Positions 42,048-63,929 of a stretch of DNA of 64,000 nucleotides are shown in pieces. Position 1 is the first letter of the stretch; every line of letters begins with the position of its first letter. Source of the stretch: an uncultured Poribacteria bacterium (GTDB lineage: Bacteria; Poribacteria; WGA-4E; WGA-3G); NCBI GenBank assembly GCA_958296135.2, contig CATQHZ020000001.1:2656001-2720000 (forward strand). Reading direction: 5' to 3'. The position numbers and the translations under genes were made by a program. The notes beneath the pieces were generated by a model that was given only the letters and a program-made list of their open reading frames with translations, was not told the DNA's origin and made no database searches.

Positions 42048-42512
42048 CTAGATGTTATTGTCTATCCAGCGCATAACCTTGTCAACAGAATCAATAAACT
42101 CTGTTGCCTCGTCACGGGTCACTTGCCTGGGAGCGTAACGCCAAATTGGTGTCCACTTGTTGACCTTGTTGCTAAACAGACGACGCGTTTCACGATTTTG
42201 CATCAACCTGTCCCAGCCCGGTGCGAGTCTGAGCAAAAATTCCAATTGATGCGTAAAGACGGTACTGGCCTCTGGCAGGATAGCGCGTCGTTGAAGTTCC
42301 TCCTCCAACTCGCGTAAAGTTTGACACCGATAGATATGCATCAATTTTGTTTTTAAGAGGCACTCCACGGCGTAGCCTGCTATATACATCGCGCCCTGCC
42401 ACCGAGAGGCATCCAACAGGGCTCGCGCATCGGCGAAACGGTGCCGACTCGCCCGCGCAAGTTCGCTGATGCCATTGTGCAAATTGTTATTCATCTTTAT
42501 AGGGTACCACAT
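42048..42512 (-). CDS. HEPN domain protein
   Basis: DARALL...AMYIAGYAVECLLK...THQL...WRY. Confidence 0.75.
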   Translation of the reverse strand: MWYPIKMNNNLHNGISELARASRHRFADARALLDASRWQGAMYIAGYAVECLLKTKLMHIYRCQTLRELEEELQRRAILPEASTVFTHQLEFLLRLAPGWDRLMQNRETRRLFSNKVNKWTPIWRYAPRQVTRDEATEFIDSVDKVMRWIDNNI

Positions 42513-47638: not shown

Positions 47639-48367
47639 ATGAAAACTCTTATGCAATATCCTGTTGTGATTTTCAAAGATCCGGATAGCATCTACGGCAT
47701 CGTTGTCCCAGACTTACCCGGGTGTATTACCGCCGGAAACACCGTCGAGCATGTGCTGACGCAAGCCGTGGAAGCCATTAAATGTCATCTGAGTGGCATC
47801 TTGACTGATGGAGAACCGATTCCGGAACCCAAGGACATCGCCTACCATCAGAACGACCCGGAATATGCCGATGCACTTCAGTGGGACACCGTGACGATAA
47901 CGCTGCCCGAACTCCGCCACTATCCGGTCCTGATATCCCGAAAACGGCGGAAGCACTACCGGCTCATCGTCCCAGACTTGCCCGGCTGTGTCGTGCGCGG
48001 CAAGACAGCACGCAATGCACTCGCGAAAGCAGGACTCGCCATCGAACGCTATATGGAAGCAAGAGTCCTTAAGGACGAAACAATACCCGAACCCAAACCC
48101 CTCGCGCACCATCGCGATAACCCCGCGCAGCCGGCGGGACAATGGGACTCGGTGCCGATTATCGTGCCGGAAATCAAGCATCTCCTCATCGCGCGCCCGG
48201 GACGCATCTCCCGCTTTTTCCGAGGGCTCGGGTTCACACGCTTTCCGTGGGAAGCACGCCCGCACCCCTGGATTCGCGGCGCGCGACCGCCGGAATGGCA
48301 AGAGGACAACACGCAAACAAAAGCGGCAGCGTTGAAAACGACACCGCAATTCGCGCAAACTGATTAA
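47639..48367 (+). CDS. hicB: HicB antitoxin with two tandem HicB domains
   Basis: YPV...VPDLPGC...G.T...L..A..AI...IPEPK occurs twice. Confidence 0.85.
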   Translation: MKTLMQYPVVIFKDPDSIYGIVVPDLPGCITAGNTVEHVLTQAVEAIKCHLSGILTDGEPIPEPKDIAYHQNDPEYADALQWDTVTITLPELRHYPVLISRKRRKHYRLIVPDLPGCVVRGKTARNALAKAGLAIERYMEARVLKDETIPEPKPLAHHRDNPAQPAGQWDSVPIIVPEIKHLLIARPGRISRFFRGLGFTRFPWEARPHPWIRGARPPEWQEDNTQTKAAALKTTPQFAQTD

Positions 48368-51225: not shown

Positions 51226-54200
51226 ATGCCGACACCCGAAAACACCGAACGCATCTTACACCTATTACAAAACCTCCGCGGCCTCGAACCCCTGCGCGAA
51301 CTCTTCTGGCGAGAACTCAACTATACCCGCATCGATGAGCCTATCGCCGAACTGCCCGATTCTCGCACCCAGTGCCTCGCTGAACCACCGCGCCGATTTG
51401 CCGCCGCCGGCAGAAACAACGATTTTCACATCCTCTACGCGCACCTCAACACCGAAAAACTTCGGAAAACCGATGAACGCCAACTCATCGCGCACCTGCA
51501 GACGCGATTCTCGCACGCGCTCTACATTTTTAGCAATGCTGCGCAAGACCACTGGCACTTCGTCAACGTCACACTCGTTCGAGAGGCACGCGAAAAACGC
51601 AAGGCCCGCCACCGCTACCGGCGCATCACTATCGCACCCGACGCAAGACTCCGCACCGCCGCCGAACGCATCGCAATGCTCAAGCTGGAAACACTCGGCA
51701 CCGATGGGCTCTTTGAAAACCTCGACCACCTGACACCGCTGGACATTTCCAACCAACACGAGGCCGCCTTTGATGTCGATGCAGTGACAGCGCAGTTTTT
51801 CGCCGACTACCAGCGCGTCTTCAAACGCCTCCACACCGAATTGGAAACGCAAACCGCTGATAAAAAGTGGGCGCACGATGCCGCGCAACAATTCCTCAGC
51901 CGCTGTCTCTTCCTCTACTTCCTCCAGCGAAAGCGGTGGTTGGGAGACAATCCGGACTTCCTCCGGACGTTTTGGGAAGCGTATCAACGCCATCGACACC
52001 GGGAGGGCTCTCCTACCGAAAAACATCAAAAACCGGCGGGCGCGACACCGGGAGAATTTGTCGACAAGTGGCTCAACGTCCTCTTCTTTGCCGCGTTTAA
52101 CAAGCGATTTCATGGCGGGTATCGCTATTTCCCACACGACATCCGTGACACACTGCAACACGCTCCCTATCTCAACGGCGGGTTGTTCCGAGAAAATGAA
52201 TGGGATACCGAGTATGCAACAACCATTCCTGATACCCTCTGGCTAGAGATATTCACCTTCTTTGAGGGATATAATTTCACCATCGCCGAGGATACACCCT
52301 TGGAACAGGAAGTCGCCGTAGACCCCGAGATGATCGGCAAAGTCTACGAGAGTCTCGTCAGTGTCTCCGCCGAAACCGATGAACGCGGCGATGCCGGCAT
52401 CTTCTACACGCCGCGCATTGAAATCGACTTGATGTGCCGCCTCGCGCTCGTGGATAACCTCACAAATCACATCGGTGAAGCACACAAGCATAAACTTTAC
52501 GCGGCACTCTTCACGTTTGACGAGACAGAGAAGGCAGCCGCCGATGCACAACTCGCCGAGCAGTGGGGCAACATCGCGGCGCATCTCAACCGCATCACTG
52601 TGTTGGATCCGGCGTGTGGGAGCGGTTCGTTCCTCGTCGGCATGCTCCACATTCTCGATGACCTGGGTGAACGCGCCGCGCGGCACCTCGGCGCGTCTGT
52701 CCCCTCCCGTTTTGAACGCCGCAAGGCCATCATCGGGAAGAATCTCTACGGCGTGGACGTGATGCCGTGGGCCTGCAAAGTCGCCGAGCTCCGCCTCTGG
52801 CTCGCGCTCATCATTGAGGCGGAGATTCGCGAGGCAGAACTGCAGATTCGCGAGGCACCGCTGCTCCCTGATTTTTCGTTTAACCTTCGGCACGGGGATA
52901 GTCTGGTGCAGGACATCGGCGGGATGAACCTCGCGCAGACGCGCGCATTGGGCAGTGGCGTGCCGAGTGCCATCAAACGGAAGATAACGACGCTGCAGAC
53001 AGAGAAACTCAAGTTTTATCACAACGAGCGCGAGCGGAAATATGCGGAGAAAGCGGATGTCCAACGCGCCGAGAACGCGCTCTTCCGAGAGATATTAACG
53101 GCTTACGAGATGCAGTTGCCGAGGCAGATCGACTCGGTCCAGGCGTTGCTGAAGGCTCTCACTGCGGAACAGTTGACGATTGCAGAGGTGGGCAAACCGG
53201 TGGACACGCGGCTTGACGCGCTGACGCAGCAGAAGCAGGCGGAATTAGCACGGCACGAGGCGAACCTCGCGCAGGTGAAGCGGGCCCTCGGTGCGTTGAA
53301 GTCTCACACTGCGCCGCCGTTTGTGTGGGACATTGCCTTCGTCGAGATTTTCAATCAATACGGTGGGTTTGACATTGTCATCGAAAACCCGCCTTACGTC
53401 GGGCAACAAAAAATTAGCAGCCCGATCCTTCCACGCGTAAAAGTGACACGAGCCAACAAGCAAGAATATAAGGCGAAGTTAGCGCGTGCCGCCTATCAAG
53501 CCTTTCCAGAATTTTTCGGTTACCAACTGCACAAAGACACCCAACCGGAAAAGCCTGCATCTGCTGTAGAGAGTCGGCTAGATTCCCAAAGCGACCTCTA
53601 CATCTACTTCTACTTTCACGGGCTCTCGTTGCTGAACCCAAAAGGCACTTTCTGCACCGTTACTTCTAACTCGTGGTTGGATGCAAGTTACGGAAGAAAT
53701 CTCAAGGAGTTTCTGCTCAAGCAGTGCCATCTCAAAATGATTTTGGACAACGCCGTGAAACGTTCTTTCAAGGATGTTGATGTGAATACCGTGATTTGTC
53801 TCATCTCAGCACCGGGTGAAAATCAAGAACCCGGTTTGCAACACACAGCGCGGTTTGTCAATTTCACTGAACCGTTTGAGGCAATTCTGGATCCGGTGAT
53901 TTTCTACGAGATCGATACCGCAACGGCGCGTGTCAGTACACCCGAGCACAAGATCTATCCTGTCACGCAGCAAACACTGCTCGCCAATGGAACAGAAAAG
54001 GCGAAATATGCTGGTGACAAATGGGGCGCAAAATATCTTCGTGCTCCCGATATCTACTGGACCGTTTTGGAAAAAGGATCGGATAAATTGGTGCGCTTGA
54101 AAGATGTCGCCAAGGTTCGGAGAGGATTCCGAACAGGCGCGGATAACTTCTTCGCACCTAATCGGGAGACAATCGCAAAGTGGAACATTGAAGACGAATT

Positions 54201-54877
54201 TCTTCGCGCGGTTGTCACCAATTCAGAAGACGTAAAGAGTCTTGTTATTGCCTCTGCACAACTACCACGTCAAGTCTTTTTTTGCTCAAAAGAGAAGGCA
54301 TCCTTGACTGGAACATCCGCGCTTGCCTACATTGAATGGGGTGAGGCGGAAGGTTTTGACCAGAGGTTAACATGCCGCAGGAGGAGTCCGTGGTATGCTA
54401 TGGGCGGAGATCGGCCCGCCCCATATCTCTGTTTTCCGCTCCTAATTTCTTCGACAACCGCGAAAACCCCCTATGCATCCGAAGGTTGCTACGGTGTCGG
54501 CAATTTCATGGAAATTGACACGTCCAAGGAGTTGGCATTACCGCTCTGTTTTTCCTTGAATTCTACCCTTTTTCAGTTGATGGTGAATGTGAACGGCCGT
54601 TTGAACCGCACGTGGACATTGGAAATCCAGCCAACTGATTTGTCTAATTTGTTATGTGTTAGTCCTGAGTTAACACAAATTAAGTGGAGGGGGGGGGCGG
54701 TTGGACGCATCCCTCCTCGCATCCGAAGAATGGGACGTTTTATCGCCTGCCCCGGCGCGCATCGCAATTGACAACGTCATCTTTGACATCTTGGAATTGA
54801 CGCAAGGCGAGCGCGATGGCGTTTACGAGGCGGTTAGAGACCTCGTCGAAACCCGTCTGAGGAAGGCGCGGAGTTGA
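51226..54877 (+). CDS. Large N6-adenine DNA methyltransferase (Eco57I/type IIG-like), frameshifted at G9 54689-54697
   Basis: GIFYTP, LDPACGSGSF (motif I), ENPPY (motif IV). The ORF as read stops at 54771, but the +1 frame encodes a typical family C-terminus ending at 54877. Confidence 0.88.
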
Positions 54878-54996: not shown

Positions 54997-57441
54997 ATGA
55001 AAACTACTGATAATCAACGTCATAATGATTCGGAGTCTACGCGTTCCGCTAACAATACTCGGTTGGATAGGATCGAGAAGTTACAAGAACGCGGTGCTGA
55101 ACTGCAAATAAAAACGGACACGCATCTTGCTGCGAGTGTTGAACGCGACGCTGCACACGCCGCTCGTTTGGACAGTATGGAGGAACTGCTCCCACACATT
55201 GTAGAACTCCAAGTGCAAACAAACGCGCGCCTCACCGCCAACGAGGCACTGGATGCCGAACGCGATGCCCGCTTAGATAGTTTTGACGAACTGTTTCGGC
55301 GGATAGGGGAGTTCCAAGCGAAGACAGAGGCACTTCTCGCCGCCAGTGCCGAACGCGACACCGCGCGCGAGACACGCCTAGAGAGCATCGAGGAATCGTT
55401 CCAACGTATCGGAGAATTCCAAGCTAAAACGGAAGCACTTCTCGCCGCAAATGCCGAACGCGACACCGCGCGCGAGACACGCCTAGAGAGCATCGAGGAA
55501 TCGTTCCAACGTATCGGAGAATTCCAAGCTAAAACGGAAGCACTCCTCGCCGCAAATGCCGAACGCGACACCGCGCGCGAGACACGCTTAGAGAGCATCG
55601 AGGAATCGTTCCAACGCATCGGAGAATTCCAAGCGAAGACAGAGGCACTTCTCGCCGCAAATGCTGAACGTGAGGCAGAACGCGAGACACGCTTAGAGAG
55701 CATCGAGGAATCGTTCCAACGCATCGGAGAATTCCAAGCGAAGACAGAGGCACTTCTCGCCGCAAATGCTGAACGTGAGGCAGAACGCGAGACACGCTTA
55801 GAGAGCATCGAGGAATCGTTCCAGCGCATCGGAGAATTCCAAGCCAAAACGGAAGCACTCCTCGCCGCCAGTGCTGAACGCGACACCGCGCGCGAGGCAC
55901 GCCTAGAGAGCATCGAGGAATCGTTCCAGCGTATCGGAAAATTCCAAGCCAAAACGGAAGCACTCCTCGCCGCCAGTGCTGAACGCGACACCGCGCGCGA
56001 GGCACGCCTAGAGAGCATCGAGGAATCGTTCCAGCGTATCGGAGAATTCCAAGCCAAAACGGAAGCACTCCTCGCCGCCAGTGCTGAACGCGACACCGCG
56101 CGCGAGGCACGCCTAGAGAGCATCGAGGAATCGTTCCAGCGTATCGGAAAATTCCAAGCCAAAACGGAAGCACTCCTCGCCGCCAGTGCTGAACGCGACA
56201 CCGCGCGCGAGGCACGCCTAGAGAGCATCGAGGAATCGTTCCAGCGTATCGGAGAATTCCAAGCGAAGACAGAGGCACTTCTCGCCGCCAGTGCCGAACG
56301 TGAGGCAGAACGCGAGGCACGCCTAGAGAGCCTCACGAACGTGCAATCCAAGATGGAGGCCCTTCTCGCTGCCAATGCGGCGCGCGATACTGAACGCGAG
56401 ACACGCTTGGAAAACCTGGAGGACCTGTTCCAACAGATTGGCGCGTTCCAATCAAGGACAGAGACACTCTTCGCCGCTAGTGCCGAACGGGACGCAGCAC
56501 GCGAGACACGCTTGGAGAATATTGAAGCATGGCATCAGCAGACAGCTGAGTTCCAATCAAAGACAGAGGCACTCTTCGCCGCTAGTGCCGAACGGGACGC
56601 AGCACGCGAGACACGCTTGGAGAATATTGAAGCATGGCATCAGCAGACAGCTGAGTTCCAATCAAAGACAGAGGCACTTCTCGCCGCCAGTGCTGAACGG
56701 GACGCAGCACGCGAGACACGCCTAGAGAGCATTGAGGAATCGCTCCGCCGCATCGGAGAATTCCAAGCCAAAACGGAAACCCTCCTTGCCGCCAGTGCTG
56801 AACGCGATGCAAAACGCGATGCACACTTGGAAAGCATTGCAGCGTTCCAAGCCAAAACAGAGGCGCACTTTGCCATGAGTGCCGAACGAGACGCAGCACG
56901 CGAGACACGCCTAGTGAGCATCGAGGAATCGCTCCGCCGTATCGGAGAATTCCAAGCCAAAACGGAAGCACTCCTCGCCGCTAGTGCCGAACGTGATGCT
57001 GAACGCGATGCACGCTTGGATAGTATTGCAGCGTTCCAAGCCAAAACGGAAGCACTCCTCGCCGCTAGTGCCGAACGTGATGCTGAACGCGATGCACGCT
57101 TGGATAGTATTGCAGCGTTCCAAGCCAAAACGGAAGCACTCCTCGCCGCTAGTGCCGAACGTGATGCCGAACGCGATGCACGCTTGGATAGTATTGCAGC
57201 GTTCCAAGCCAAAACGGAAGCACTCCTCGCCGCTAGTGCCGAACGCGATGCCAAACGGGATAAGCAGCTGGAGGGTATGAATGAAAAGGTGGCGAACACT
57301 GAAAAATCCGTTGAGGCATTGAAGGGCGCGCTGACCCCCTGGAAACTTGTCCTCGGCGGAATCGTTAGTATCATCTTTGCCATGGTTTTGTCTGTGCTCG
57401 GCGCAAAAGGCATGGAGGTACTCCTAGACCTCTTCAAATAA
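54997..57441 (+). CDS. Tandem-repeat coiled-coil protein with a C-terminal membrane anchor
   Basis: About 22 units of 35 or 28 aa; TM segment LVLGGIVSIIFAMVLSVLGA; AAAGGA RBS. Confidence 0.85.
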   Translation: MKTTDNQRHNDSESTRSANNTRLDRIEKLQERGAELQIKTDTHLAASVERDAAHAARLDSMEELLPHIVELQVQTNARLTANEALDAERDARLDSFDELFRRIGEFQAKTEALLAASAERDTARETRLESIEESFQRIGEFQAKTEALLAANAERDTARETRLESIEESFQRIGEFQAKTEALLAANAERDTARETRLESIEESFQRIGEFQAKTEALLAANAEREAERETRLESIEESFQRIGEFQAKTEALLAANAEREAERETRLESIEESFQRIGEFQAKTEALLAASAERDTAREARLESIEESFQRIGKFQAKTEALLAASAERDTAREARLESIEESFQRIGEFQAKTEALLAASAERDTAREARLESIEESFQRIGKFQAKTEALLAASAERDTAREARLESIEESFQRIGEFQAKTEALLAASAEREAEREARLESLTNVQSKMEALLAANAARDTERETRLENLEDLFQQIGAFQSRTETLFAASAERDAARETRLENIEAWHQQTAEFQSKTEALFAASAERDAARETRLENIEAWHQQTAEFQSKTEALLAASAERDAARETRLESIEESLRRIGEFQAKTETLLAASAERDAKRDAHLESIAAFQAKTEAHFAMSAERDAARETRLVSIEESLRRIGEFQAKTEALLAASAERDAERDARLDSIAAFQAKTEALLAASAERDAERDARLDSIAAFQAKTEALLAASAERDAERDARLDSIAAFQAKTEALLAASAERDAKRDKQLEGMNEKVANTEKSVEALKGALTPWKLVLGGIVSIIFAMVLSVLGAKGMEVLLDLFK
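55351..57250 (+). repeat. Intragenic 105-bp and 84-bp tandem repeats
   Basis: Nine near-identical 105-bp units at 55351-56295, then mixed 105-bp and 84-bp units. Confidence 0.95.
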
Positions 57442-57451
57442 AGGAGGACAC

Positions 57452-60400
57452 ATGCCTCAAGATATCATTGACAACCGCAACGAAAAACTCATTGACAATG
57501 TCAATCTCATCTTGGATGAGACAGAGCGGGCCCGCTTCGCTGTCGGCTACTTCTTCCTCTCCGGGTTTACCGGCATCGCCGAGGCACTGCAAAACGTCAC
57601 TGAGCTCTGTCTCCTCATCGGGAACACGAGCACACGCGAGACTATTGAGCAGCTCGCCGCAGGGTATCAGCAGCTGGAATCTGTAGCGGAGATTCACTCG
57701 GCACACCGCTATTCACGAGACGTTGAACGCAGGGCACGCGCTCGTGAAACCGCGCAGAACCTCCGCGCGTGCATTGAATTCATGCCTCAGACAAATGCCT
57801 CGGAGCAGCTCATCAGAACCCTCGTTGAGATGATTGCCCGCGGACAGTTGAAAGTGAAGCTCTATACGAAGGAGCGTCTCCACGCAAAAGCCTACATTTT
57901 TGATTACGAGCAAAATGCGCGGTTTGAATCCGGCATCTCTATCGTCGGCTCATCTAATCTCACCTTGGCAGGGTTAACGAGCAATACCGAATTGAACGTC
58001 GTGGTTCACGGCAATGCCAATCAGGAGCAACTCCGCGACTGGTTTGACGCGCTGTGGGAAGAGGCAGAAGATTTTGACAAGGCCTTGATGGAAGAGATGC
58101 AAACCTCCTGGGCCCTCGCGCCTGTCCGGCCTTACGATGTCTACATGAAAACGCTCTACGAGTTGGTAAGCGACAGAGTGGCGGCGGATGAAAGCCGCAT
58201 CGCTCCAGCAGACGAGTTGACAACCCAACTCGCGGATTTCCAACAAGTTGCGGTTTCCCAAGCAATTCGGATTATTGATGCATACGGCGGTGTCTTCATT
58301 TCCGATGTCGTCGGTTTAGGCAAGAGTTACATCGGTTCGGCGATTGTCAAGCACTTTGAGCGGGGTGAACAGGCGCGCCCGCTCATTCTCTGTCCGCCTG
58401 CGTTGATGGCAATGTGGGAGCATTACAACGCCGCCTATCAACTCCACGCGCAGGTTCTCTCCACGGGGCTTTTAAGTAGCGGTGAAGCGAACGCGAGAGA
58501 GCTGCTCTTTGAAGACGTTCGCTATCGGCACTGCGATTTTGTCCTCGTTGACGAAAGCCACAACTTCCGCAATGCGAATACGCAACGCTACCGGGTTTTG
58601 CAGGAATTTCTCATGGCGGGAGAGAAAAAATGCTGTTTCCTCACGGCGACACCGCGCAACAAAAGCGCGTGGGATATCTACCACCAACTCAAACTCTTTC
58701 ATCTCAACGATGATACGCAGCTGCCCTTGGACGCGCCAGATCTGCGCGAATATTTCCGCATGATTGAAAACGGTGAACGCAGCCTCCCCGCGCTTTTACA
58801 ACACATTCTTATCCGTCGAACGCGGAACCACATCCTGCGCTGGTACGGCTACGATGCAGAAACAGATGAACCGGTAGATGCGACGCAATTCGCCGATTAT
58901 CTGAGTCGCAACCGCCGCGCTTACGTTCGCGTCGGCGATACCAAGCAGTTCTTTCCAAAGCGAACCCTCAAGACGATTGAATACAGCATTGAAGAAACCT
59001 ATCAAGGGCTCTACGCGCAGATTCGCGATTGCCTCGGTAAATCGCAATCCGCCGCGCAGTTGACTTATGCCCGTTATGGCCTCTGGCACTATGTGAAGGA
59101 GGAGAGACAGGATGTCCATCCGTATCAGGAGCTGCAGAGCGCGGGCAGAAACCTCCGCGGGCTGATTCGCATCCTGCTATTCAAACGTTTTGAATCCAGC
59201 GTGCATGCTTTCAAAATGACTATCTCTCGGTTTCACAGCGTCCATGTCGATTTCCTTTACGCGCTAGAAAATGGCATTGTGCCAGCAGGCGACGATGCAC
59301 AGAAAATCCTCTATGAGACAACCACCGCCGACCAAACCGATATCAGCCCAGAGGAACGAGACATCGGGCTGTTTCTGGAGGAACTGCGGCGTGCCTCCGA
59401 GCAATATAACATCCTAGACTTCAACGTCCCTGAACTTCGCGATGCAATTCAGCACGACATTGACATCCTGAAGCAGATTTTAGATATGGTTCAGAATATC
59501 ACCCCGGCACAGGATGCAAAACTTCAGCGGCTGCAAAGACTGCTGGAATTGCCACCTTTACACGGCAAAAAACGGCTCATCTTTACGCAGTATATTGACA
59601 CGGCAAGTTATCTCTACGAAAACCTGCAGGCGGAGGATACCGAGGTTATCCATAGCCACGGCAGCGACAGGAAACAGCATGTCGTCGGTAGGTTTGCGCC
59701 AAACGCGAATCAATACCGCTTGAAACCGGGGGAGACAGAGATAGAGACGCTCATCGCGACTGATGTCCTCGCCGAGGGGTTGAACCTGCAAGACTGCGGC
59801 CTGCTCATCAACTACGATTTGCATTGGAATCCGGTGCGTCTCATTCAACGCTTCGGGCGCATTGACAGGATTGGCAGTCAATTTGACGAAATCCACGGGT
59901 TCAACTTTCTGCCGGAGTTGGGGATTGAGCGCAACCTCGGTTTACGCGAGAAACTCCGACACCGCATTCAGGAAATCCACGATACCATCGGCGAAGATGC
60001 AGCCATTCTGGATAACTCCGAACAACTGAATGAAAGCGCGATGTATGCCATTTATGAGCAGCACGGTGAACAGCTCAGCCTTTTGGAAGAAAGCGAGGCG
60101 CCGAGTTTCGGATTAAGCGAGGCGGAGGAGTTGTTGCGGCAATTGAAACGGCAAAACCCGCAGGAATATCAACGCATCGCCGAGCTAAGAGACGGCATCC
60201 GTACCGGCATCCCCGCCGAAGTGGAGGGCACCTACGTTTTCTGTCGCGACGAACGTAACCGGCAGCTCGTCCTGCTTAATGAAAACGGAACTGAAAAGAC
60301 TACGGATATTGCCGAGATCCTTCGGCTACTTCAAAGCAATGCTGAATTGCGCGGCAAACCTGTTTCGCCTGAGCACAACGCCCGCGTCACTGAAGTGCAG

Positions 60401-60754
60401 GAAAAGTTTGCAGGACAAATCAGAGGCGTGCAAAACGCATTTCCCAAACCGAATTTGTCCCGCGCGCAAAGATACATCTTGCAGGAGTTAAGAATGCTGT
60501 CTAGCACTTCGTCAGACAGTGTGCTAGGGCAGCTTGAGCAGGCGTTCCGCGGCCGCTTGACAGAGAGCCTCAAGCGAGAAATCACTCGTCTCCAGCGCGA
60601 GAAAATCGCGGGCGAAGCACTGTCAACGGCGTTGAAAAATCTCTATCACCGCTACAATCTGGCGGCGTTAGGCAGCGGCGAGGCACAGCCAGATAAGCCG
60701 GTCCGCGCGCCGATTAAGGTGATTTGCAGCGCGGCGTTTGTTAAATTTGCATGA
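57452..60754 (+). CDS. PLD-family nuclease fused to an SNF2-type helicase
   Basis: LHAKAY...GSSNLT...NTELN; DVVGLGKS, DESH, TATP, EGLNLQ, WNPVRLIQRFGRIDR; AGGAGG RBS. Confidence 0.9.
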   Translation: MPQDIIDNRNEKLIDNVNLILDETERARFAVGYFFLSGFTGIAEALQNVTELCLLIGNTSTRETIEQLAAGYQQLESVAEIHSAHRYSRDVERRARARETAQNLRACIEFMPQTNASEQLIRTLVEMIARGQLKVKLYTKERLHAKAYIFDYEQNARFESGISIVGSSNLTLAGLTSNTELNVVVHGNANQEQLRDWFDALWEEAEDFDKALMEEMQTSWALAPVRPYDVYMKTLYELVSDRVAADESRIAPADELTTQLADFQQVAVSQAIRIIDAYGGVFISDVVGLGKSYIGSAIVKHFERGEQARPLILCPPALMAMWEHYNAAYQLHAQVLSTGLLSSGEANARELLFEDVRYRHCDFVLVDESHNFRNANTQRYRVLQEFLMAGEKKCCFLTATPRNKSAWDIYHQLKLFHLNDDTQLPLDAPDLREYFRMIENGERSLPALLQHILIRRTRNHILRWYGYDAETDEPVDATQFADYLSRNRRAYVRVGDTKQFFPKRTLKTIEYSIEETYQGLYAQIRDCLGKSQSAAQLTYARYGLWHYVKEERQDVHPYQELQSAGRNLRGLIRILLFKRFESSVHAFKMTISRFHSVHVDFLYALENGIVPAGDDAQKILYETTTADQTDISPEERDIGLFLEELRRASEQYNILDFNVPELRDAIQHDIDILKQILDMVQNITPAQDAKLQRLQRLLELPPLHGKKRLIFTQYIDTASYLYENLQAEDTEVIHSHGSDRKQHVVGRFAPNANQYRLKPGETEIETLIATDVLAEGLNLQDCGLLINYDLHWNPVRLIQRFGRIDRIGSQFDEIHGFNFLPELGIERNLGLREKLRHRIQEIHDTIGEDAAILDNSEQLNESAMYAIYEQHGEQLSLLEESEAPSFGLSEAEELLRQLKRQNPQEYQRIAELRDGIRTGIPAEVEGTYVFCRDERNRQLVLLNENGTEKTTDIAEILRLLQSNAELRGKPVSPEHNARVTEVQEKFAGQIRGVQNAFPKPNLSRAQRYILQELRMLSSTSSDSVLGQLEQAFRGRLTESLKREITRLQREKIAGEALSTALKNLYHRYNLAALGSGEAQPDKPVRAPIKVICSAAFVKFA

Positions 60755-60775
60755 AACTTGCATTTGTGGTATTAT
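60747..60775 (+). promoter_or_regulatory. Putative promoter of the TGT-like gene
   Basis: TTGCAT-17 bp-TATTAT with an extended TG. Confidence 0.45.
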
Positions 60776-60820: not shown

Positions 60821-62752
60821 ATGCACACACACGAGAACGCTCGCGACACAAAAACCGACAGCGCGCCCACTATCTTCCGCACCGTCACTGCCACGGAGCA
60901 TGGACGGATCGGTGAATTGCACTTTCGCGCGGGAAACAGAAAATTGGAAACGCCGGTTCTCTACCCGGTCATCAATTTCCTCACCGGGACAAGCGCGCGC
61001 GGCGGCGGCGTTTGGAAATACATCCTCCGCAATTTCATGCAACACGATACCCCAACGCTATCCCAGGTCTTGCACTTTCTAGATTTCAACTTCACTGGGA
61101 AGTATCTCGCAAATTGGCGAAAAAAGTCGATGCGGGAGCATTACCTCGAACAGAACGGCGATTACCAAGGCGTGCTCTTTTTGGATTCGGGCGGCTTCAA
61201 ACTCCTTTACAACACGGGGTTGGATTTATCCGAATTTGGCATCCACAAAGAAACAGAGGCGGACGATATTCTCGCCATACAACTCGATTTTGATGGCGAT
61301 ATCGTCGCGTCGTTAGACTATCCTATCCCGCCGAATTTGGCGCGCGCTGAAGCAATACAACGGATGGAGAAGAGTTTTGCCAACGCCCGCCGCGTTGCGC
61401 AACAGTTGAGCGGCAAAACGGATATGCCCTACTTTTACGTTTGTTGTCACGGGCAATCCGGGCGAGATATTCAAGGCTACGTCCACAATGTCTTTGAGCA
61501 GATTGGCGAGTTGCTGCCCTCTTTTGGGTTGGCGGTCGGTTCTCTTGTCCCGTTGCGCGGCAAAAACGATTGGGCCGTCATGGAACTTCTCAACGGCGTA
61601 GTGGAGACACTCCCCGCGGCCCGGCGAGATAGCACACCGATTCACGCGTTCGGCGTGTCCGGTATGCTGACGCCTATCCTCGCTTATATCGGGGTGGACA
61701 GTTTTGACAGTTCGTCTTACGTCCAAGCCTCGCGAAGCCTCGCCTATTCGCACCCTGAAACGCTCAAGAAACTGAAGATTATGGAGATGGACGCGCTCAC
61801 TTGTGAGTGTTACATCTGCCAAGCTATCACGCTTGATGAAATCCAGCAGGGGTTCATGGAGGAGAAGAGTTATCAAGCCACCTCAACCGGCAAGTTTAAA
61901 AGCGAATACTACGCACTCCTCTCACTCCACAATTTTGAAATGGAGACGCGGCTGCTAACAGCCATGCGCGAGGCAATTCAGGCTGACGACGCGATTGAGG
62001 GGTTAACGCGACATATCGGAAAATTCCAACGCAACCGCGGCATCCGGGATGCCGTAGAATGGCTTTCCGCGAAAGATTTTGACGTGGCCACCCGGCTGAC
62101 CCGGACCTTGGTGCACATACCGATGGCCGCTGAGAAGTCAACTCGGAACCCAAATCAGTTGGAACTTTTCCCTTATGATACCTCGGAAAGTTCAACGACA
62201 CTCCTCCATGAGGACGAAACGCCGACTATCTCGCTTAACTATACGCCAGAAGATTTTCGCGTGCCAGCGGATTATCAGCCTCCGGCGGGAGTAGACATGC
62301 TGTTGGTAATCCCGTGCGCCGGACAGAAGCCGTATTCGCTTTCACGCACCCACACGTTGATGGCGAAAAAACTGCAGGAGGCATTCCCTGAAAAACATCA
62401 GCGGATTCACAAAGTCACGCTCTCCGGACTCTACGGCCCCGTCCCCGAAGAGTTTGAGGAAGAGGAAGCACTCGTTCGCTACGATTTCCAACTCGCAGCG
62501 CAGAACACCGCGCAGATACAACTCTGTGCGACGCGCCTCATTGACTATCTCCAAAAATATGGAGAGCAGTACGTCTTTACTGTCGGATATGCCACGAGCA
62601 AGGCTTACCGTGAAGTGCTTGCTATCGCCGAAAGCCGGTGCTCAAACTTCGTTTTGATGCCGAAAGTGCTCAAGCAGAAACGCTTGTCTGAATTCTTTCG
62701 GCACGTGCATTTAAACGCCTTGGTTGAGGAAGTCCAGAAAAAATTGGAATAG
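60821..62752 (+). CDS. TGT/DpdA-family guanine transglycosylase fused to an ArcS-like (DUF5591) domain
   Basis: ETP, DSGGF, LDYP, HAFG, GVDSFDS, zinc site CECYIC...HN; C-terminal PCAGQKPYSLSRTH and SGLYGPVPEE. Confidence 0.85.
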   Translation: MHTHENARDTKTDSAPTIFRTVTATEHGRIGELHFRAGNRKLETPVLYPVINFLTGTSARGGGVWKYILRNFMQHDTPTLSQVLHFLDFNFTGKYLANWRKKSMREHYLEQNGDYQGVLFLDSGGFKLLYNTGLDLSEFGIHKETEADDILAIQLDFDGDIVASLDYPIPPNLARAEAIQRMEKSFANARRVAQQLSGKTDMPYFYVCCHGQSGRDIQGYVHNVFEQIGELLPSFGLAVGSLVPLRGKNDWAVMELLNGVVETLPAARRDSTPIHAFGVSGMLTPILAYIGVDSFDSSSYVQASRSLAYSHPETLKKLKIMEMDALTCECYICQAITLDEIQQGFMEEKSYQATSTGKFKSEYYALLSLHNFEMETRLLTAMREAIQADDAIEGLTRHIGKFQRNRGIRDAVEWLSAKDFDVATRLTRTLVHIPMAAEKSTRNPNQLELFPYDTSESSTTLLHEDETPTISLNYTPEDFRVPADYQPPAGVDMLLVIPCAGQKPYSLSRTHTLMAKKLQEAFPEKHQRIHKVTLSGLYGPVPEEFEEEEALVRYDFQLAAQNTAQIQLCATRLIDYLQKYGEQYVFTVGYATSKAYREVLAIAESRCSNFVLMPKVLKQKRLSEFFRHVHLNALVEEVQKKLE

Positions 62753-62759
62753 GAAAAGC

Positions 62760-63929
62760 ATGAATAGCTACTTTTTACCGCCACGCATTGAATGTGGCAA
62801 CGGGGCAATCAAAGACTTGGCGGCGCATGTTGAACACCTCGGCGGGCGAAAACCGCTCGTGGTGAGCGATGCCGGTGTCCGCAGCGCGGGCATCCTCGCG
62901 AGAGCCATCGCGCCGTTGGAAGATGCCAATATCCCTTATGCCGACTATACTGAAATCGAACCGAATCCGACAGACATCAGCACGGAAAAAGGCGCAGCGT
63001 TGTGGCAAACGGCGGAATGCGATGTCATCGTCGCCATCGGCGGCGGCAGTGTGATGGATGCAGCGAAAGCCATCCGCATCTTGACGACGCATGAACCGCC
63101 GTTGGAGCCTTACTACGTCGATGTCGGCGGCAGGGAACGCATCCGCGATGACATGCCGCCCCTGATTTGTGTCCCGACGACAGCTGGCACTGGCAGCGAA
63201 GTCTCGCAAGGCGCAATTATCACCGATACATCGCAAAACACGACGGATAGATGGCGAAAGCGCGCAATCGTCACGCCGCTGAATATGTCGAACATCGCGC
63301 TCCTCGACCCGAGGTTAACGGTAGGAATGCCGATGCCGCTCACCGCCGCCACCGGCATGGATGCCATCACGCACGGGATTGAAGCGTATGTTGCCACGAG
63401 ATACCACCCTATCTCCGAAGGTGTCGCATTGCAGGCACTGAAGATGCTCGGCGCAAATATCCGACAAGCGTATCACCACGGCGACGATGTCGCAGCGAGA
63501 GGCGAAATGTTGCTCGGCGCAAGCATGGGCGCGTTTGCCTTTCAGAAAGGACTCGGGGCTGTCCACTCAATCGCGCATCAGTTGTCCACTGAAGCACCCA
63601 TACCGCACGGTGTCGCCAACGCGATACTGTTGCCACCGGTGATGGAATTTAACTTCTCTCATGCCGTGGACAAATACGCCGAGGTTGCCGATGTGTTAGG
63701 CGTAGACACTACCGGCATGTCTATAGAAGCAGCGGCGCGCGCCGCTATTGATGACATCCGCGCACTGAACGAGGAATTACGGATGCCAGCAGGGCTCGGT
63801 GCCTGCGGTTTAGCACGCGAAATGCTCCCCAAACTCGCCGCTGATTCTATGCTGGACCACTGCTACAAATCCAATCCGCGCCCCTGCACCGAAGACGATA
63901 TGTTGGCGTTGCTGGAAGCAGCGTTCTAA
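62760..63929 (+). CDS. Iron-containing alcohol dehydrogenase
   Basis: GGGSVMDAAK, PTTAGTGSE, GMDAITHGIE, HSIAH, HG..N. Confidence 0.93.
   Translation: MNSYFLPPRIECGNGAIKDLAAHVEHLGGRKPLVVSDAGVRSAGILARAIAPLEDANIPYADYTEIEPNPTDISTEKGAALWQTAECDVIVAIGGGSVMDAAKAIRILTTHEPPLEPYYVDVGGRERIRDDMPPLICVPTTAGTGSEVSQGAIITDTSQNTTDRWRKRAIVTPLNMSNIALLDPRLTVGMPMPLTAATGMDAITHGIEAYVATRYHPISEGVALQALKMLGANIRQAYHHGDDVAARGEMLLGASMGAFAFQKGLGAVHSIAHQLSTEAPIPHGVANAILLPPVMEFNFSHAVDKYAEVADVLGVDTTGMSIEAAARAAIDDIRALNEELRMPAGLGACGLAREMLPKLAADSMLDHCYKSNPRPCTEDDMLALLEAAF

What the first reader, a model, noticed from the sequence alone, without database searches (positions are those of the whole stretch)
60821..62752. Bacterial single-chain fusion of a guanine transglycosylase and an ArcS (archaeosine synthase) domain
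Seen: the N-terminal ~380 aa keep the TGT catalytic residues (DSGGF near nt 61184, LDYP, GVDSFDSS near 61691) and the zinc site CxCxxC...H (61802-61819). After a linker comes PCAGQKPYSLSRTH (62312-62353). Known: PC-X3-KPY-X2-S-X2-H is the ArcS signature. In archaea arcTGT inserts preQ0 and a separate ArcS processes it toward archaeosine, while DpdA-type TGTs insert 7-deazaguanines into DNA. No PUA RNA-binding domain is visible here. Inference: one polypeptide may both insert and further modify a 7-deazaguanine, plausibly in DNA given its neighbours, in a bacterium. No queC/D/E, folE or radical-SAM partner lies in the window.
Basis: partly seen in the sequence, partly recalled or inferred. Interest (0 to 1): 0.88.

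Follow-up and report, generated by a model that had tools for sequence, protein, structure and literature searches.

The report
PUA-less ArcTGT/ArcS-type transglycosylase in a bacterium
This sponge-symbiont gene encodes an enzyme with an intact guanine-swapping domain and an intact archaeosine-synthase domain but no tRNA-binding module; it belongs to an uncharacterised accessory family that in other microbes sits inside 7-deazaguanine DNA-modification defence islands.

Summary
ORF 60821-62752 (+) encodes 643 aa with a Pfam TGT domain (28-392) and DUF5591, the ArcS C1 domain (480-606). The catalytic Asps, the Zn site and the PC-X3-KPY-X2-S-X2-H motif are all present and conserved across 31 relatives.

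It is not a new fusion. It is collinear with archaeal ArcS, which is itself a TGT-like domain plus C1. Unlike ArcS, it keeps ArcTGT's complete catalytic barrel, and it lacks the C2 and PUA domains.

The organism is a Candidatus Poribacteria symbiont. The gene is accessory: it occurs in 54 of 176 phylum genomes, against 172 of 176 for canonical Tgt and 176 of 176 for QueC.

The adjacent MTase, repeat protein and HKD-SNF2 genes are shared only within the genus. A different methylase or R-M module occupies the same upstream position in another Poribacteria clade. Distant family members sit next to QueC/D/E, DpdA-, DpdC-, DpdJ- and DpdK-like genes, YhhQ, PglZ and HerA.

The best reading is a self-contained enzyme that inserts a 7-deazaguanine and then modifies it, probably in DNA. 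The substrate is unproven. I rate it a new variant of a known kind, with moderately high interest.

The parts
60821..62752 (+). The TGT-C1 gene, 643 aa: an ArcTGT-like catalytic barrel, a helical linker and an ArcS-type C1 domain. It has no C2 or PUA domain.
   Evidence: ORF. Pfam TGT plus DUF5591. AlphaFold2 model with mean pLDDT 88.2 and pTM 0.87.
60902..61996 (+). N-terminal TGT (beta/alpha)8 barrel with its Zn subdomain, residues 28-392.
   Evidence: Pfam PF01702, 69.7 bits. VIA-align against ArcTGT 1iq8: Z 38.1, rmsd 2.5, 346 residues aligned, model range 15-424. Bacterial TGT scored Z 32.9, DpdA 7ui4 Z 23.8 and Cap10 9ntn Z 19.8.
61184..61198 (+). DSGGF motif. D122, S123 and F126 correspond to Asp95, Ser96 and Phe99 of P. 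horikoshii ArcTGT.
   Evidence: HMM alignment to 1iq8. D122, S123 and G125 are invariant in 31 of 31 sequences. PMC4770233 (Discussion passage) says these residues are missing in ArcS.
61313..61324 (+). LDYP motif. D166 aligns with Asp130 of ArcTGT.
   Evidence: alignment. D166 and P168 are invariant. The role of Asp130 in base recognition is recalled from memory and comes from no call.
61691..61708 (+). GVDSFD motif. D296 aligns with Asp249 of ArcTGT.
   Evidence: alignment, counting residues from the printed range. D296 is invariant and D293 is at least 90 % conserved. The role of Asp249 as the nucleophile is recalled from memory.
61802..61930 (+). Zn site: C328, C330, C333 and H370 (CxCxxC...H).
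   Evidence: C330, C333 and H370 are invariant and C328 is at least 90 % conserved. They align to the CCCH motif of 1iq8. The motif is described in a PMC4770233 passage.
62111..62215 (+). Low-confidence, poorly conserved linker, residues 431-465.
   Evidence: pLDDT below 50 for residues 431-443 and 445-465. This region is gappy in the alignment.
62258..62638 (+). ArcS-type C1 domain (DUF5591), residues 480-606. By structure it extends from 477 to 643.
   Evidence: Pfam PF17884, 51 bits. NCBIfam ArcS model positions 284-405. PDB profile hit to AF0587 2q07, 51 bits. VIA-align Z 15.8, rmsd 2.2, 135 residues aligned, model range 477-643.
62312..62353 (+). PCAGQKPYSLSRTH, the ArcS signature PC-X3-KPY-X2-S-X2-H.
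   Evidence: Seen directly in the sequence. It aligns to LLPCSARKPYSKSRTH of the genuine ArcS P0265. The motif is quoted in PMC10516641 and PMC5699537. P504 and Y505 are invariant, and C499, K503 and S508 are at least 90 % conserved. The final His is not on the list of conserved columns.
60746..60775 (+). Sigma-70-like promoter match in the 66-bp gap upstream of the gene (TTTGCA, 18-nt spacer, TATTAT, with an extended-10 TG).
   Evidence: This is only a consensus match at 9 of 12 positions. The region gave 13 such sites against 7.9 +/- 3.0 in shuffles.
57452..60754 (+). Context gene, not a conserved partner: HKD (PLD) nuclease fused to an SNF2 helicase, 1100 aa.
   Evidence: Pfam PLDc_2, SNF2-rel_dom and Helicase_C. 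PADLOC 'HKD+Snf2' PDLC01075, 267 bits. It lies upstream of TGT-C1 only in the genomes of the same genus: L002/L130 at 82 % identity and L001 at 86 % identity by tblastn.
54997..57441 (+). Context gene: an 814-aa tandem-repeat, coiled-coil-like protein with a hydrophobic C-terminus.
   Evidence: a 105-bp unit in 9.7 copies at 94 % identity, plus 84-bp and 189-bp arrays. No credible Pfam or PADLOC family.
51226..54771 (+). Context gene: a 1181-aa Eco57I-type (type IIG-like) N6-adenine DNA methyltransferase.
   Evidence: Pfam Eco57I, 99.8 bits. PADLOC REase_MTase_IIG, 161 bits. Shared only with L002/L130 at 70-72 % identity.
62724..63929 (+). Downstream Fe-dependent alcohol dehydrogenase. It is the conserved downstream neighbour within the window's Poribacteria family.
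   Evidence: Pfam Fe-ADH and ADH_Fe_C. This is cluster c10, which lies next to TGT-C1 in the window, L001-L003, L013, L126, L129, L130, L133 and L139-L141. L002/L130 and L003/L129 are the same genomes fetched twice.

Best explanation
The gene encodes a third kind of enzyme in the archaeal ArcTGT/ArcS lineage, which I call TGT-C1.

Its N-terminal barrel keeps every element that ArcTGT uses to swap a guanine for a 7-deazaguanine base, most likely preQ0. These are the equivalents of Asp95, Ser96, Phe99, Asp130 and Asp249, plus the Zn site. Its C-terminal C1 domain keeps the ArcS catalytic signature. ArcS uses that domain to add an amine (lysine or ammonia) to the nitrile of polymer-bound preQ0.

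The inferred mechanism is that one polypeptide inserts preQ0 into a nucleic acid and then converts it in place to an amidine-type derivative, either G+-like or a preQ0-amino-acid adduct. That second step would also block the reverse exchange.

The protein lacks the C2 and PUA tRNA-binding domains. The gene is accessory and patchily distributed. Distant members of the family are embedded in Dpd-like and BREX-related (BRC-type) islands. For these reasons the most likely substrate is DNA, either as a self-mark or as an orphan epigenetic mark.

In this Poribacteria genome it is a solo gene. The MTase, repeat protein and HKD-SNF2 module just upstream is a genus-specific neighbour, not an obligate partner.

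Shown here: the architecture, the residue conservation, the fold, the distribution and the gene contexts. Inferred: both activities, the identity of the base, and DNA as the substrate.
For: **Architecture and residues**
- Domain hits. Conservation in 31 of 31 relatives.
- Residue mapping onto ArcTGT 1iq8.
- Fold: ArcTGT Z 38.1 for residues 15-424 and AF0587 Z 15.8 for residues 477-643, on a model with pLDDT 88.2.

**Relation to ArcS**
- The protein is collinear with a genuine ArcS, P0265, which scores 443.5 bits on NF040592 against a cut-off of 440. The aligned region is residues 247-606.
- P0265 has no DSGG or LDYP element. This matches the PMC4770233 statement that ArcS lacks Asp95, Ser96 and Phe99.

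**Not housekeeping**
- The genome has a canonical tgt scoring 532 bits.
- In the phylum, TGT-C1 is in 54 of 176 genomes: 44 of 133 high-quality genomes, 0 of 40 in one genus and 16 of 20 in another.
- Canonical Tgt is over its cut-off in 172 of 176 genomes, and QueC is in 176 of 176.
- The DUF5591 model hits only 3 of 14 control genomes, all euryarchaea.

**Link to 7-deazaguanine and DNA systems**
- 105 loci fall into 34 groups at 70 % identity.
- 12 of the 29 non-Poribacteria groups have QueC, QueD, a QueE-like gene, a DpdC-like (DUF6884) gene or a short DpdA-like TGT within 10 kb.
- 8 more have only DpdJ-like, DpdK-like, STAND or c16 genes.
- L018 reads YhhQ, TGT-C1, PglZ-like, further genes, then HerA. 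This matches the BRC system, whose 'TGT' component was predicted to insert dPreQ0 into DNA (PMC12839542 section 36).
- Two haloarchaeal megaplasmids carry the gene next to helicase, PLD, DUF6884 and TGT genes.

**Recurrent DNA-methylase neighbours in Poribacteria**
- An N6/N4 methylase lies directly upstream on the same strand in 8 of 20 fetched loci. 2 of those 8 also have a MutH/MvaI-like endonuclease.
- The type IIG-like MTase and HKD-SNF2 module lies upstream in the window's genus.

**Precedents**
- Phage nt-1 ArcS2, which consists of C1 only, made dG+ in DNA when co-expressed with DpdA2 in E. coli (PMC10516641 Table 3 passage).
- Lysine transfer by ArcS prevents the reverse exchange (PMC11298593 passage).
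Against: - No biochemical data exist for any member of the family that I could find.
- In Poribacteria, 0 of 5 sequence groups have any 7-deazaguanine or Dpd gene within 10 kb. About half of the fetched loci have only metabolic neighbours.
- The closest sister loci, L014 to L017, lie among ABC-transporter, sigma-70 and Lon genes.
- Absence of PUA does not exclude tRNA. PUA-deleted P. furiosus ArcTGT is still active and site-specific (PMC4770233 passage).
- T. kodakarensis ArcS is inactive without its radical-SAM partner RaSEA (PMC11298593 passage). No such partner is adjacent here, and I did not search the genome for one.
- The base-binding Gln169 of ArcTGT is a near-invariant His (H210) in this family, and Gly196 is Ser (S241). 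The base may therefore not be preQ0.
- The barrel is structurally closer to the tRNA enzymes than to the DNA enzyme DpdA: Z 38.1 and 32.9 against 23.8.
- In the megaplasmid-type loci a separate DpdA-like TGT sits beside TGT-C1. There the insertion step may belong to that other enzyme.
- No relative was found in phage records or viral contigs.
Confidence: 0.45

Rival explanations
1. It is an RNA enzyme: a bacterial archaeosine-type tRNA or other RNA modifier. It would insert preQ0 and amidate it in tRNA, independently of the canonical Tgt/queuosine pathway.
For: - Its nearest solved relatives are tRNA enzymes: ArcTGT Z 38.1 and bacterial TGT Z 32.9, against DpdA Z 23.8.
- The best NCBIfam hits are TgtA and ArcS.
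- PUA is dispensable for ArcTGT activity (PMC4770233 passage).
- ArcS acts even on a preQ0 nucleoside 5'-phosphate (PMC11298593 abstract and passages).
- In Poribacteria the gene forms one clade (13 of 13 rows, SH-aLRT 100) and often lies among metabolic genes. This looks more like a domesticated cellular function than a mobile defence gene.
Against: - It is present in only 54 of 176 phylum genomes, while Tgt is in 172 of 176.
- It has no C2 or PUA domain.
- In 20 of 29 non-Poribacteria groups it lies beside 7-deazaguanine, Dpd-like or BREX-like genes, which act on DNA.
- The haloarchaeal copies are on megaplasmids. That haloarchaea already have ArcTGT and ArcS for tRNA is supported only indirectly, by the DUF5591 hit in the H. 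volcanii control genome.
Confidence: 0.2
2. Only the C1 domain is catalytic. The barrel serves just to flip out and hold a preQ0 base that another enzyme inserted, either a DpdA-like TGT or the host Tgt. On this reading the protein is an ArcS2-like dPreQ0 modifier and not an insertase.
For: - About 37 megaplasmid-type loci carry a separate short TGT of about 415 aa directly beside TGT-C1. It gives weak DpdA hits in PADLOC and NCBIfam.
- ArcS itself uses a degenerate TGT-like domain.
- Phage ArcS2 needs DpdA2 to make dG+.
Against: - D122, S123, D166 and D296 are invariant in 31 of 31 diverse members. ArcS has lost the D122 and D166 region entirely. That pattern argues for retained glycosyl-transfer chemistry.
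- Many loci have no other TGT nearby: L018, L019, L023 and all the Poribacteria loci.
Confidence: 0.15
3. It is a defence effector or sensor aimed at phage DNA that carries 7-deazaguanines. It would bind, swap out or covalently trap on the modified bases, instead of marking self DNA.
For: - It sits next to R-M or defence modules in two Poribacteria clades and in many distant loci.
- Defence glycosylases that target 7-deazaguanine-modified phages exist (bioRxiv 10.1101/2025.10.29.685425 passages).
- The same assembly has a phage-like contig carrying FolE, QueC and QueD.
Against: - QueC, QueD, QueE-like and YhhQ genes next to distant members indicate that those loci make or import the base, which fits writing a mark better than erasing one.
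- The conserved ArcS-type C1 chemistry has no obvious role in an eraser.
Confidence: 0.08
4. It is a protein-modifying TGT like Cap10 of type IV CBASS, conjugating a 7-deazaguanine to a partner protein.
For: Cap10 is a remodelled TGT-family enzyme (bioRxiv 10.1101/2025.04.06.647259, abstract seen in the listing). Cap10 9ntn appears among the structural hits at Z 19.8 and among the sequence hits at 25.3 bits.
Against: - It is the weakest of the TGT-family matches.
- No CD-NTase or Cap9/QatC-type partner was seen in the window ORFs I annotated, nor among the recurrent neighbour clusters.
Confidence: 0.04

Closest known systems
Archaeosine tRNA-guanine transglycosylase (ArcTGT/TgtA; PDB 1iq8)
   Same: It has a complete (beta/alpha)8 catalytic barrel with the equivalents of Asp95, Ser96 and Phe99 (D122, S123, F126), Asp130 (D166) and Asp249 (D296), plus the CCCH Zn site. 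ArcTGT is the best sequence hit (119 bits with the family profile) and the best structural hit (Z 38.1).
   Different: It scores only 87.3 bits on TIGR00432 against a cut-off of 350. ArcTGT's small C1, its C2 and its PUA domain are replaced by an ArcS-type catalytic C1, and the protein ends there. Gln169 is His and Gly196 is Ser. It is bacterial and accessory.
Archaeosine synthase ArcS (TgtA2; NCBIfam NF040592)
   Same: It is collinear from the second half of the barrel through the Zn site and helical linker into C1 (hhalign probability 99.7, residues 247-606). The PC-X3-KPY-X2-S-X2-H motif is identical in pattern.
   Different: It scores 78.7 bits against a cut-off of 440. ArcS lacks the N-terminal 70-130 residues with Asp95, Ser96 and Phe99 (PMC4770233 passage; P0265 sequence) and carries C2 and PUA. 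This family has the full barrel and no C2 or PUA. No RaSEA partner is adjacent.
Minimal ArcS-like proteins: AF0587 (PDB 2q07) and phage/virus ArcS2 (C1 only)
   Same: The C1 domain has the same fold (Z 15.8, 25 % identity over 135 residues). ArcS2 sets the precedent that a PUA-less C1 works on DNA-borne preQ0, producing dG+ (PMC10516641 passage).
   Different: Those proteins have no TGT barrel and need a separate DpdA. I did not align any ArcS2 sequence here.
DpdA, the DNA preQ0 insertase of Dpd systems (PDB 7ui4; NF041059)
   Same: It belongs to the same superfamily. Distant TGT-C1 loci contain Dpd-type partners: DpdC-like DUF6884, DpdJ-like, DpdK-like and QueC/D/E genes.
   Different: No DpdA model hit was listed for the window protein. 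Similarity is much weaker (20.7 bits, Z 23.8). No DpdB was detected next to it. In the megaplasmid-type loci a GHKL ATPase sits where DpdB would be.
The 'TGT' component of BREX-Related Capture (BRC) systems (NAR 2026, PMC12839542 section 36)
   Same: L018 (YhhQ, TGT-C1, PglZ-like, further genes, HerA) and the HerA-adjacent L091 match the described gene set. The paper predicts dPreQ0 insertion into host DNA.
   Different: Section 36 names only 'TGT' and says nothing of an ArcS-type C1 domain. Its supplementary tables were not available to me, so the identity of the two is inferred. The window itself has none of the BRC genes.

Membership tests
Pfam TGT (PF01702) superfamily | Score over the gathering threshold, with a TIM-barrel fold | tested here: met
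   69.7 bits against a cut-off of 26.3. Z 38.1 to 1iq8.
Pfam DUF5591 (PF17884), the ArcS C1 domain | Score over the gathering threshold, with the PC-X3-KPY-X2-S-X2-H motif | tested here: met
   51 bits against a cut-off of 26. The motif lies at residues 498-511. Z 15.8 to 2q07.
Bacterial queuine Tgt (TIGR00430) | Equivalog score of at least 306.75 bits | tested here: not met
   37.8 bits. A separate canonical tgt is present at G000:C1:4111780.
ArcTGT / TgtA (TIGR00432) | Equivalog score of at least 350 bits | tested here: not met
   87.3 bits.
ArcTGT / TgtA | Catalytic Asp95 and Asp249 equivalents and the CCCH Zn site | tested here: met
   D122, D296, C328, C330, C333 and H370 align to 1iq8 and are conserved.
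ArcTGT / TgtA | C2 and C3 (PUA) tRNA-binding domains | tested here: not met
   No PUA hit, and the protein ends at residue 643 after C1. 10 of 10 longer family variants also show only TGT plus DUF5591.
ArcS (NF040592) | Equivalog score of at least 440 bits | tested here: not met
   78.7 bits. The genuine ArcS P0265 scores 443.5 bits.
ArcS | Truncated N-domain lacking Asp95, Ser96 and Phe99, plus a C-terminal PUA domain | tested here: not met
   The window protein keeps DSGGF and LDYP and lacks PUA.
ArcS | Works with the radical-SAM partner RaSEA | not tested
   None of the window ORFs I annotated is a radical-SAM enzyme. I had no RaSEA model accession and ran no genome-wide search.
DpdA (NF041059; PADLOC DpdA) | A hit to the family model, and a DpdB partner | tested here: not met
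   No DpdA model was listed at E <= 0.01 for the window protein. No neighbouring gene hits DpdB.
Dpd system or BRC system, as a locus | Co-located DpdB-K genes, or PglZ, DUF6079, STAND, DUF4007 and HerA | tested here: not met
   The window neighbours are an Eco57I-type MTase, a repeat protein, HKD-SNF2 and Fe-ADH. Such genes do occur beside distant family members.
Cap10 (type IV CBASS) | Cap10-like remodelled pocket, with CD-NTase and Cap9 neighbours | tested here: inconclusive
   Weak similarity only: 25.3 bits and Z 19.8. No CBASS gene was found among the neighbours I annotated. The pocket itself was not examined.

The most novel reading that the evidence does not exclude
TGT-C1 is a self-sufficient two-step DNA hypermodification enzyme. 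It exchanges guanine for preQ0 in double-stranded DNA and converts the inserted base immediately to an archaeosine-like amidine, either dG+ or an amino-acid adduct such as dPreQ0-Lys. On this reading it writes an orphan epigenetic mark in Poribacteria chromosomes. The same enzyme would be the previously unrecognised modification module of BRC and Dpd-like defence islands in other bacteria and in haloarchaea.
Probability: 0.3. Interest if true: 0.8.

Novelty: new variant of a known kind. Interest (0 to 1): 0.62.

Why it matters
Archaeosine chemistry (the ArcS C1 domain) is regarded as archaeal and tRNA-specific, with one phage exception. The DUF5591 model hits none of the ten bacterial control genomes.

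This is a rare but widely scattered family: 97 cluster representatives at E <= 1e-30 among 1.84 billion proteins. It joins an intact base-exchange barrel to that chemistry, drops the tRNA-binding domains, and sits in 7-deazaguanine and BREX-related islands.

If it acts on DNA, three things would follow:
- It would add a one-enzyme route to dG+-type DNA marks in cellular genomes.
- It would explain the 'TGT' of BRC systems.
- It would provide a compact tool for site-directed 7-deazaguanine labelling.

If it acts on RNA, it would be the first bacterial archaeosine-type modification. Either outcome can be tested by a simple expression and LC-MS experiment.

Tried and rejected
**Obligate operon with the upstream genes.** I rejected the idea that the MTase, repeat protein, HKD-SNF2 and TGT-C1 genes form an obligate four-gene system. 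Among 106 loci only the same-genus genomes share these neighbours.

My first count wrongly said L001 lacked HKD-SNF2. My ORF filter discarded ORFs containing runs of 10 or more X, and a 163-N stretch hid that gene. tblastn corrected this. Other loci with N-runs could be affected in the same way.

**Housekeeping Tgt.** Rejected.

**Dependency test.** I asked whether carriers of the gene also have QueC. The test is uninformative, because QueC is in 176 of 176 genomes.

**Extra fused domains.** I looked for GNAT or PUA in longer family variants. None was found in 10 of 10.

**Phage origin.** There was no match in 50,697 phage records. In IMG/VR, 132 pattern hits yielded 0 confirmed relatives.

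**Expression.** No RNA holder was listed. I did not use read laying, because the holders are kept only as contigs.

**Tree.** The careful treekit search did not finish within 300 s, so the quick IQ-TREE tree (SH-aLRT only) is what I report.
- Rows shorter than 560 aa and near-duplicates at 85 % identity or more were dropped before the tree. 56 representatives of 105 loci were kept, plus ArcS as an outgroup on a very long branch.
- The context labels on the tree came from BLAST clusters. Because of this, L018 and L091 are labelled 'none' although Pfam shows YhhQ, PglZ-like and HerA neighbours.

**Foldseek 'pdb' search.** It listed only TGTs among its top 50 hits. The C1 match appeared only in the wide VIA search.

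**Things I could not do.**
- I could not inspect model coordinates, so I made no statement about electrostatics or how the two domains face each other.
- Supplementary files of PMC12839542 and PMC10516641, which may list accessions or architectures of the BRC 'TGT' and of ArcS2, were not available.

**Claim that the family is not in print.** This rests on full-text searches for:
- 'DUF5591' (2 records of one work)
- ArcS, transglycosylase, defense system and 7-deazaguanine
- TgtA2 to TgtA5
- DUF6884, PDC-M57, DpdA, haloarchaea and archaeosine synthase
- ArcS2, ArcS-like, TGT-ArcS, ArcS homolog and ArcS domain

Subscription-only papers are not covered. Phillips et al. 2010 on ArcS and Thiaville et al. 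2016 on dpd are examples, which I know only from recall and reference lists.

Full report
**What is there.**
The ORF 60821-62752 (+) encodes 643 aa. Pfam finds TGT (PF01702) at residues 28-392 (69.7 bits) and DUF5591 (PF17884) at residues 480-606 (51 bits), and nothing else.

In NCBIfam the best models are archaeal: TgtA at 87.3 bits and ArcS at 78.7 bits. Both are far below their equivalog cut-offs of 350 and 440. The bacterial queuine Tgt model gives only 37.8 bits against a cut-off of 306.75.

- DSGGF at 61184
- LDYP at 61313
- GVDSFD at 61691
- CxCxxC at 61802-61819, with H370
- PCAGQKPYSLSRTH at 62312-62353

**Conservation and fold.**
A word-indexed search found 428 clusters, and the 120 listed all carry TGT plus DUF5591 at about 580-665 aa. 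An exhaustive HMMER search of 1.84 billion representatives found 553 hits at E <= 1e-3 and 97 at E <= 1e-30.

In an alignment of 31 full-length members at 28-72 % identity to the window protein (A1):
- D122, S123, G125, D166, H275, G278, D296, C330, C333, H370, P504, Y505, G539, P542 and R597 are invariant.
- D293, C328, C499, K503 and S508 are at least 90 % conserved.

The family profile hits P. horikoshii ArcTGT 1iq8 (119 bits) with its N-half and AF0587 2q07 (51 bits) with its C-half. DpdA 7ui4 gets 20.7 bits and Cap10 9ntn gets 25.3 bits. Counting along that alignment:
- D122, S123 and F126 correspond to Asp95, Ser96 and Phe99.
- D166 corresponds to Asp130.
- H210 sits where Gln169 is, and S241 where Gly196 is.
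- D296 corresponds to Asp249.
- The Cys and His residues correspond to the CCCH Zn site.

The AlphaFold2 model is confident (pLDDT 88.2, pTM 0.87), with a disordered linker at residues 431-465. A search that does not depend on Foldseek gives the following:
- ArcTGT: Z 38.1, residues 15-424
- bacterial TGT: Z 32.9
- QTRT2: Z 29.3
- DpdA: Z 23.8
- Cap10: Z 19.8
- AF0587: Z 15.8, residues 477-643

**Relation to ArcS: not a new fusion.**
The papers I read describe ArcS as already a TGT paralog with four domains: Nt, C1, C2 and PUA. C1 carries the PC-X3-KPY-X2-S-X2-H motif (PMC10516641 and PMC5699537 passages). ArcS has lost ArcTGT's N-terminal 70-130 residues, including Asp95, Ser96 and Phe99 (PMC4770233 Discussion passage).

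I found a genuine ArcS among the distant hits. P0265 scores 443.5 bits on NF040592 against a cut-off of 440 and has a PUA domain. The window protein and the family profile align to it collinearly, residues 247-606 against 161-472 (hhalign probability 99.7). P0265 has no DSGG or LDYP element.

So this family combines ArcTGT's complete barrel with ArcS's catalytic C1 and stops there. 10 of 10 longer variants have no additional Pfam domain.

**Organism and distribution.**
The nearest relatives are Candidatus Poribacteria MAGs. The window's genome has:
- a canonical tgt (532 bits) and a third, short TGT paralog
- QueC twice, QueD twice and FolE twice, all outside the window
- only this one DUF5591 gene

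Across 176 genomes of the phylum:
- TGT-C1 is in 54. That is 44 of 133 high-quality genomes, with 0 of 40 in one genus, 12 of 65 in another and 16 of 20 in a third. A few genomes have two copies or broken copies.
- Canonical Tgt is in 172.
- QueC is in 176.

It is therefore an accessory gene in a phylum where the precursor pathway is universal. The Poribacteria copies form one clade (13 of 13 rows, SH-aLRT 100). That clade nests in a 24-row clade (SH-aLRT 97) that I take to be bacterial, judging from the neighbouring genes. This is a quick tree, not a finished search.

**Gene neighbourhoods.**
I compared 106 loci:
- the window
- 80 metagenome loci
- 20 Poribacteria loci with about 14 kb of upstream flank
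- L001-L003
- two haloarchaeal megaplasmids

I called ORFs and clustered them by BLAST. Two pairs of loci are the same genomes fetched twice (L002/L130 and L003/L129).

*The window's own neighbours.* These are the Eco57I-type MTase (51226-54771), the repeat protein (54997-57441) and HKD-SNF2 (57452-60754), annotated. They recur only in the same genus. L002/L130 has all three. L001 has HKD-SNF2, and its contig ends before the MTase would appear.

*Conserved neighbours within Poribacteria.* In the window's Poribacteria family the conserved neighbour is the downstream Fe-ADH. In two other Poribacteria families an N6/N4 DNA methylase (PF01555) lies directly upstream on the same strand in 8 of 20 loci. 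A MutH/MvaI-like endonuclease lies between the two genes in 2 of those 8. The rest of the Poribacteria flanks are metabolic genes.

*Outside Poribacteria.* The picture changes. 105 loci with a focal gene fall into 34 groups at 70 % identity, and 29 of these are not Poribacteria.
- 12 of the 29 have QueC, QueD, a QueE-like radical-SAM gene, a DpdC-like DUF6884 gene or a short DpdA-like TGT within 10 kb.
- 8 more have only DpdJ-like helicase, DpdK-like PLD, STAND NTPase or c16 genes.
- 9 have none by these labels.

Of those 9:
- L018 is actually YhhQ, TGT-C1, PglZ-like, further genes, then HerA.
- L091 has HerA directly upstream.
- L027 has a large helicase and a protein with an MrfA Zn-binding domain.
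- L014 to L017 are among housekeeping genes.
- The rest were not annotated or have very short flanks.

The clade that includes the megaplasmid copies (23 rows, SH-aLRT 100) shows a recurring cassette. It consists of a DUF6884/DpdC-like gene, a short TGT and a GHKL ATPase beside TGT-C1. It is often accompanied by QueD, QueE-like and QueC genes, a GIY-YIG nuclease, and PglZ/BrxC-like or STAND modules.

The equation of DUF6884 with DpdC comes from a bioRxiv passage (10.1101/2025.02.24.639861).

The BRC system of PMC12839542 (section 36 read in full) lists PglZ, DUF6079, STAND, DUF4007, HerA, GNAT and 'TGT'. It predicts dPreQ0 insertion into host DNA. L018 fits that description, but the section does not mention a C1 domain.

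**Interpretation.**
Both active sites are under strong purifying selection across the family. ArcS has lost exactly the barrel elements that this family keeps invariant, which argues that the barrel still performs base exchange. The C1 signature argues for ArcS-type addition to the preQ0 nitrile.

ArcS's lysine transfer makes ArcTGT's exchange irreversible (PMC11298593 passage). That gives a rationale for having both steps in one chain.

DNA is favoured as the substrate for four reasons:
- The C2 and PUA domains are missing.
- The gene is accessory.
- Distant members sit in Dpd-like and BRC-like contexts.
- DNA methylase or R-M modules recur upstream in Poribacteria.

There is also the precedent of phage ArcS2 making dG+ in DNA.

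Against this:
- The Poribacteria loci contain no 7-deazaguanine genes.
- PUA is not essential for ArcTGT activity.
- T. kodakarensis ArcS needs RaSEA.
- The pocket differs from ArcTGT at two positions (Gln169 to His, Gly196 to Ser).
- The fold is nearer to the tRNA enzymes than to DpdA.
- No viral homologues exist.

I put the 'insert and modify a 7-deazaguanine, probably in DNA' model at 0.45. The RNA alternative is at 0.2. 'C1 only is catalytic' is at 0.15. An effector aimed at modified phage DNA is at 0.08. A Cap10-like protein modifier is at 0.04.

**Novelty.**
I found no paper that describes this family. Subscription literature and supplementary files were not visible. The domains and the chemistry are known, and the locus type (Dpd, BRC) is known. 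The combination, its bacterial occurrence and its solo, vertically kept state in Poribacteria are new. I therefore rate it a new variant of a known kind, with interest 0.62.

Noticed in passing
window 54997-57441 (+): An 814-aa protein built of near-perfect tandem repeats: a 105-bp (35-aa) unit in 9.7 copies at 94 % identity, plus 84-bp and 189-bp arrays. It has a hydrophobic C-terminus and is wedged between the type IIG-like MTase and HKD-SNF2. Its same-genus homologue is only 386 aa at 52 % identity, so the repeat number varies. No family was assigned.
   Followed up: partly
G000:C1:951488-952534 (-), locus L142: A third, short TGT paralog (348 aa; Pfam TGT 59.7 bits; weak TgtA and DpdA hits). 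It lies next to a 530-aa protein with no family, a HerA/DUF87 ATPase and a nucleotidyltransferase/HepT-like protein. This may be another TGT-containing defence module in the same genome.
   Followed up: partly
G000 contig C2 (143,886 bp), about 69-100 kb; locus L143: A second set of FolE, QueC and QueD genes sits on a small contig, among many short same-strand ORFs and a phage-type RNA ligase (PHA02142 OB-fold). No PF01702-detectable TGT is on that contig. It looks like a phage or plasmid element carrying a 7-deazaguanine pathway.
   Followed up: partly
L123:5981-7622 (-) and the equivalent positions in L124, L125, L127, L128, L132, L137 and L138: An N6/N4 DNA methylase lies directly upstream of TGT-C1 on the same strand in 8 of 20 fetched Poribacteria loci, across two families at 72-100 % identity. 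Its MutH/MvaI-like endonuclease partner survives in only 2 of them, so the methylase is mostly an orphan that stays paired with TGT-C1.
   Followed up: partly
metagenome loci, for example L033, L054, L078 and L087: A Dpd-like cassette in which a GHKL (HATPase_c_3) ATPase of about 516 aa sits where DpdB would be, beside a DUF6884/DpdC-like gene and a short DpdA-like TGT. A BREX-like block (BrxC-like protein of about 1242 aa plus PglZ-like) lies in the same island.
   Followed up: partly
window 42048-42512 (-) and 47639-48367 (+): A HEPN-domain protein and a HicB-like antitoxin lie among metabolic genes upstream of the island.
   Followed up: no
genomes G031, G055, G056, G057; G070, G151, G037: Some Poribacteria genomes carry two full TGT-C1 copies in different contexts. 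Others carry split or truncated copies, for example 363 aa plus 309 aa with an in-frame TGA in G070. This suggests ongoing duplication and decay.
   Followed up: no
residues H210 and S241 (nt 61448-61450 and 61541-61543): The base-contacting Gln169 and Gly196 of ArcTGT are replaced by a near-invariant His and Ser in this family. This is unexplained and may signal a different base or a different protonation chemistry.
   Followed up: no
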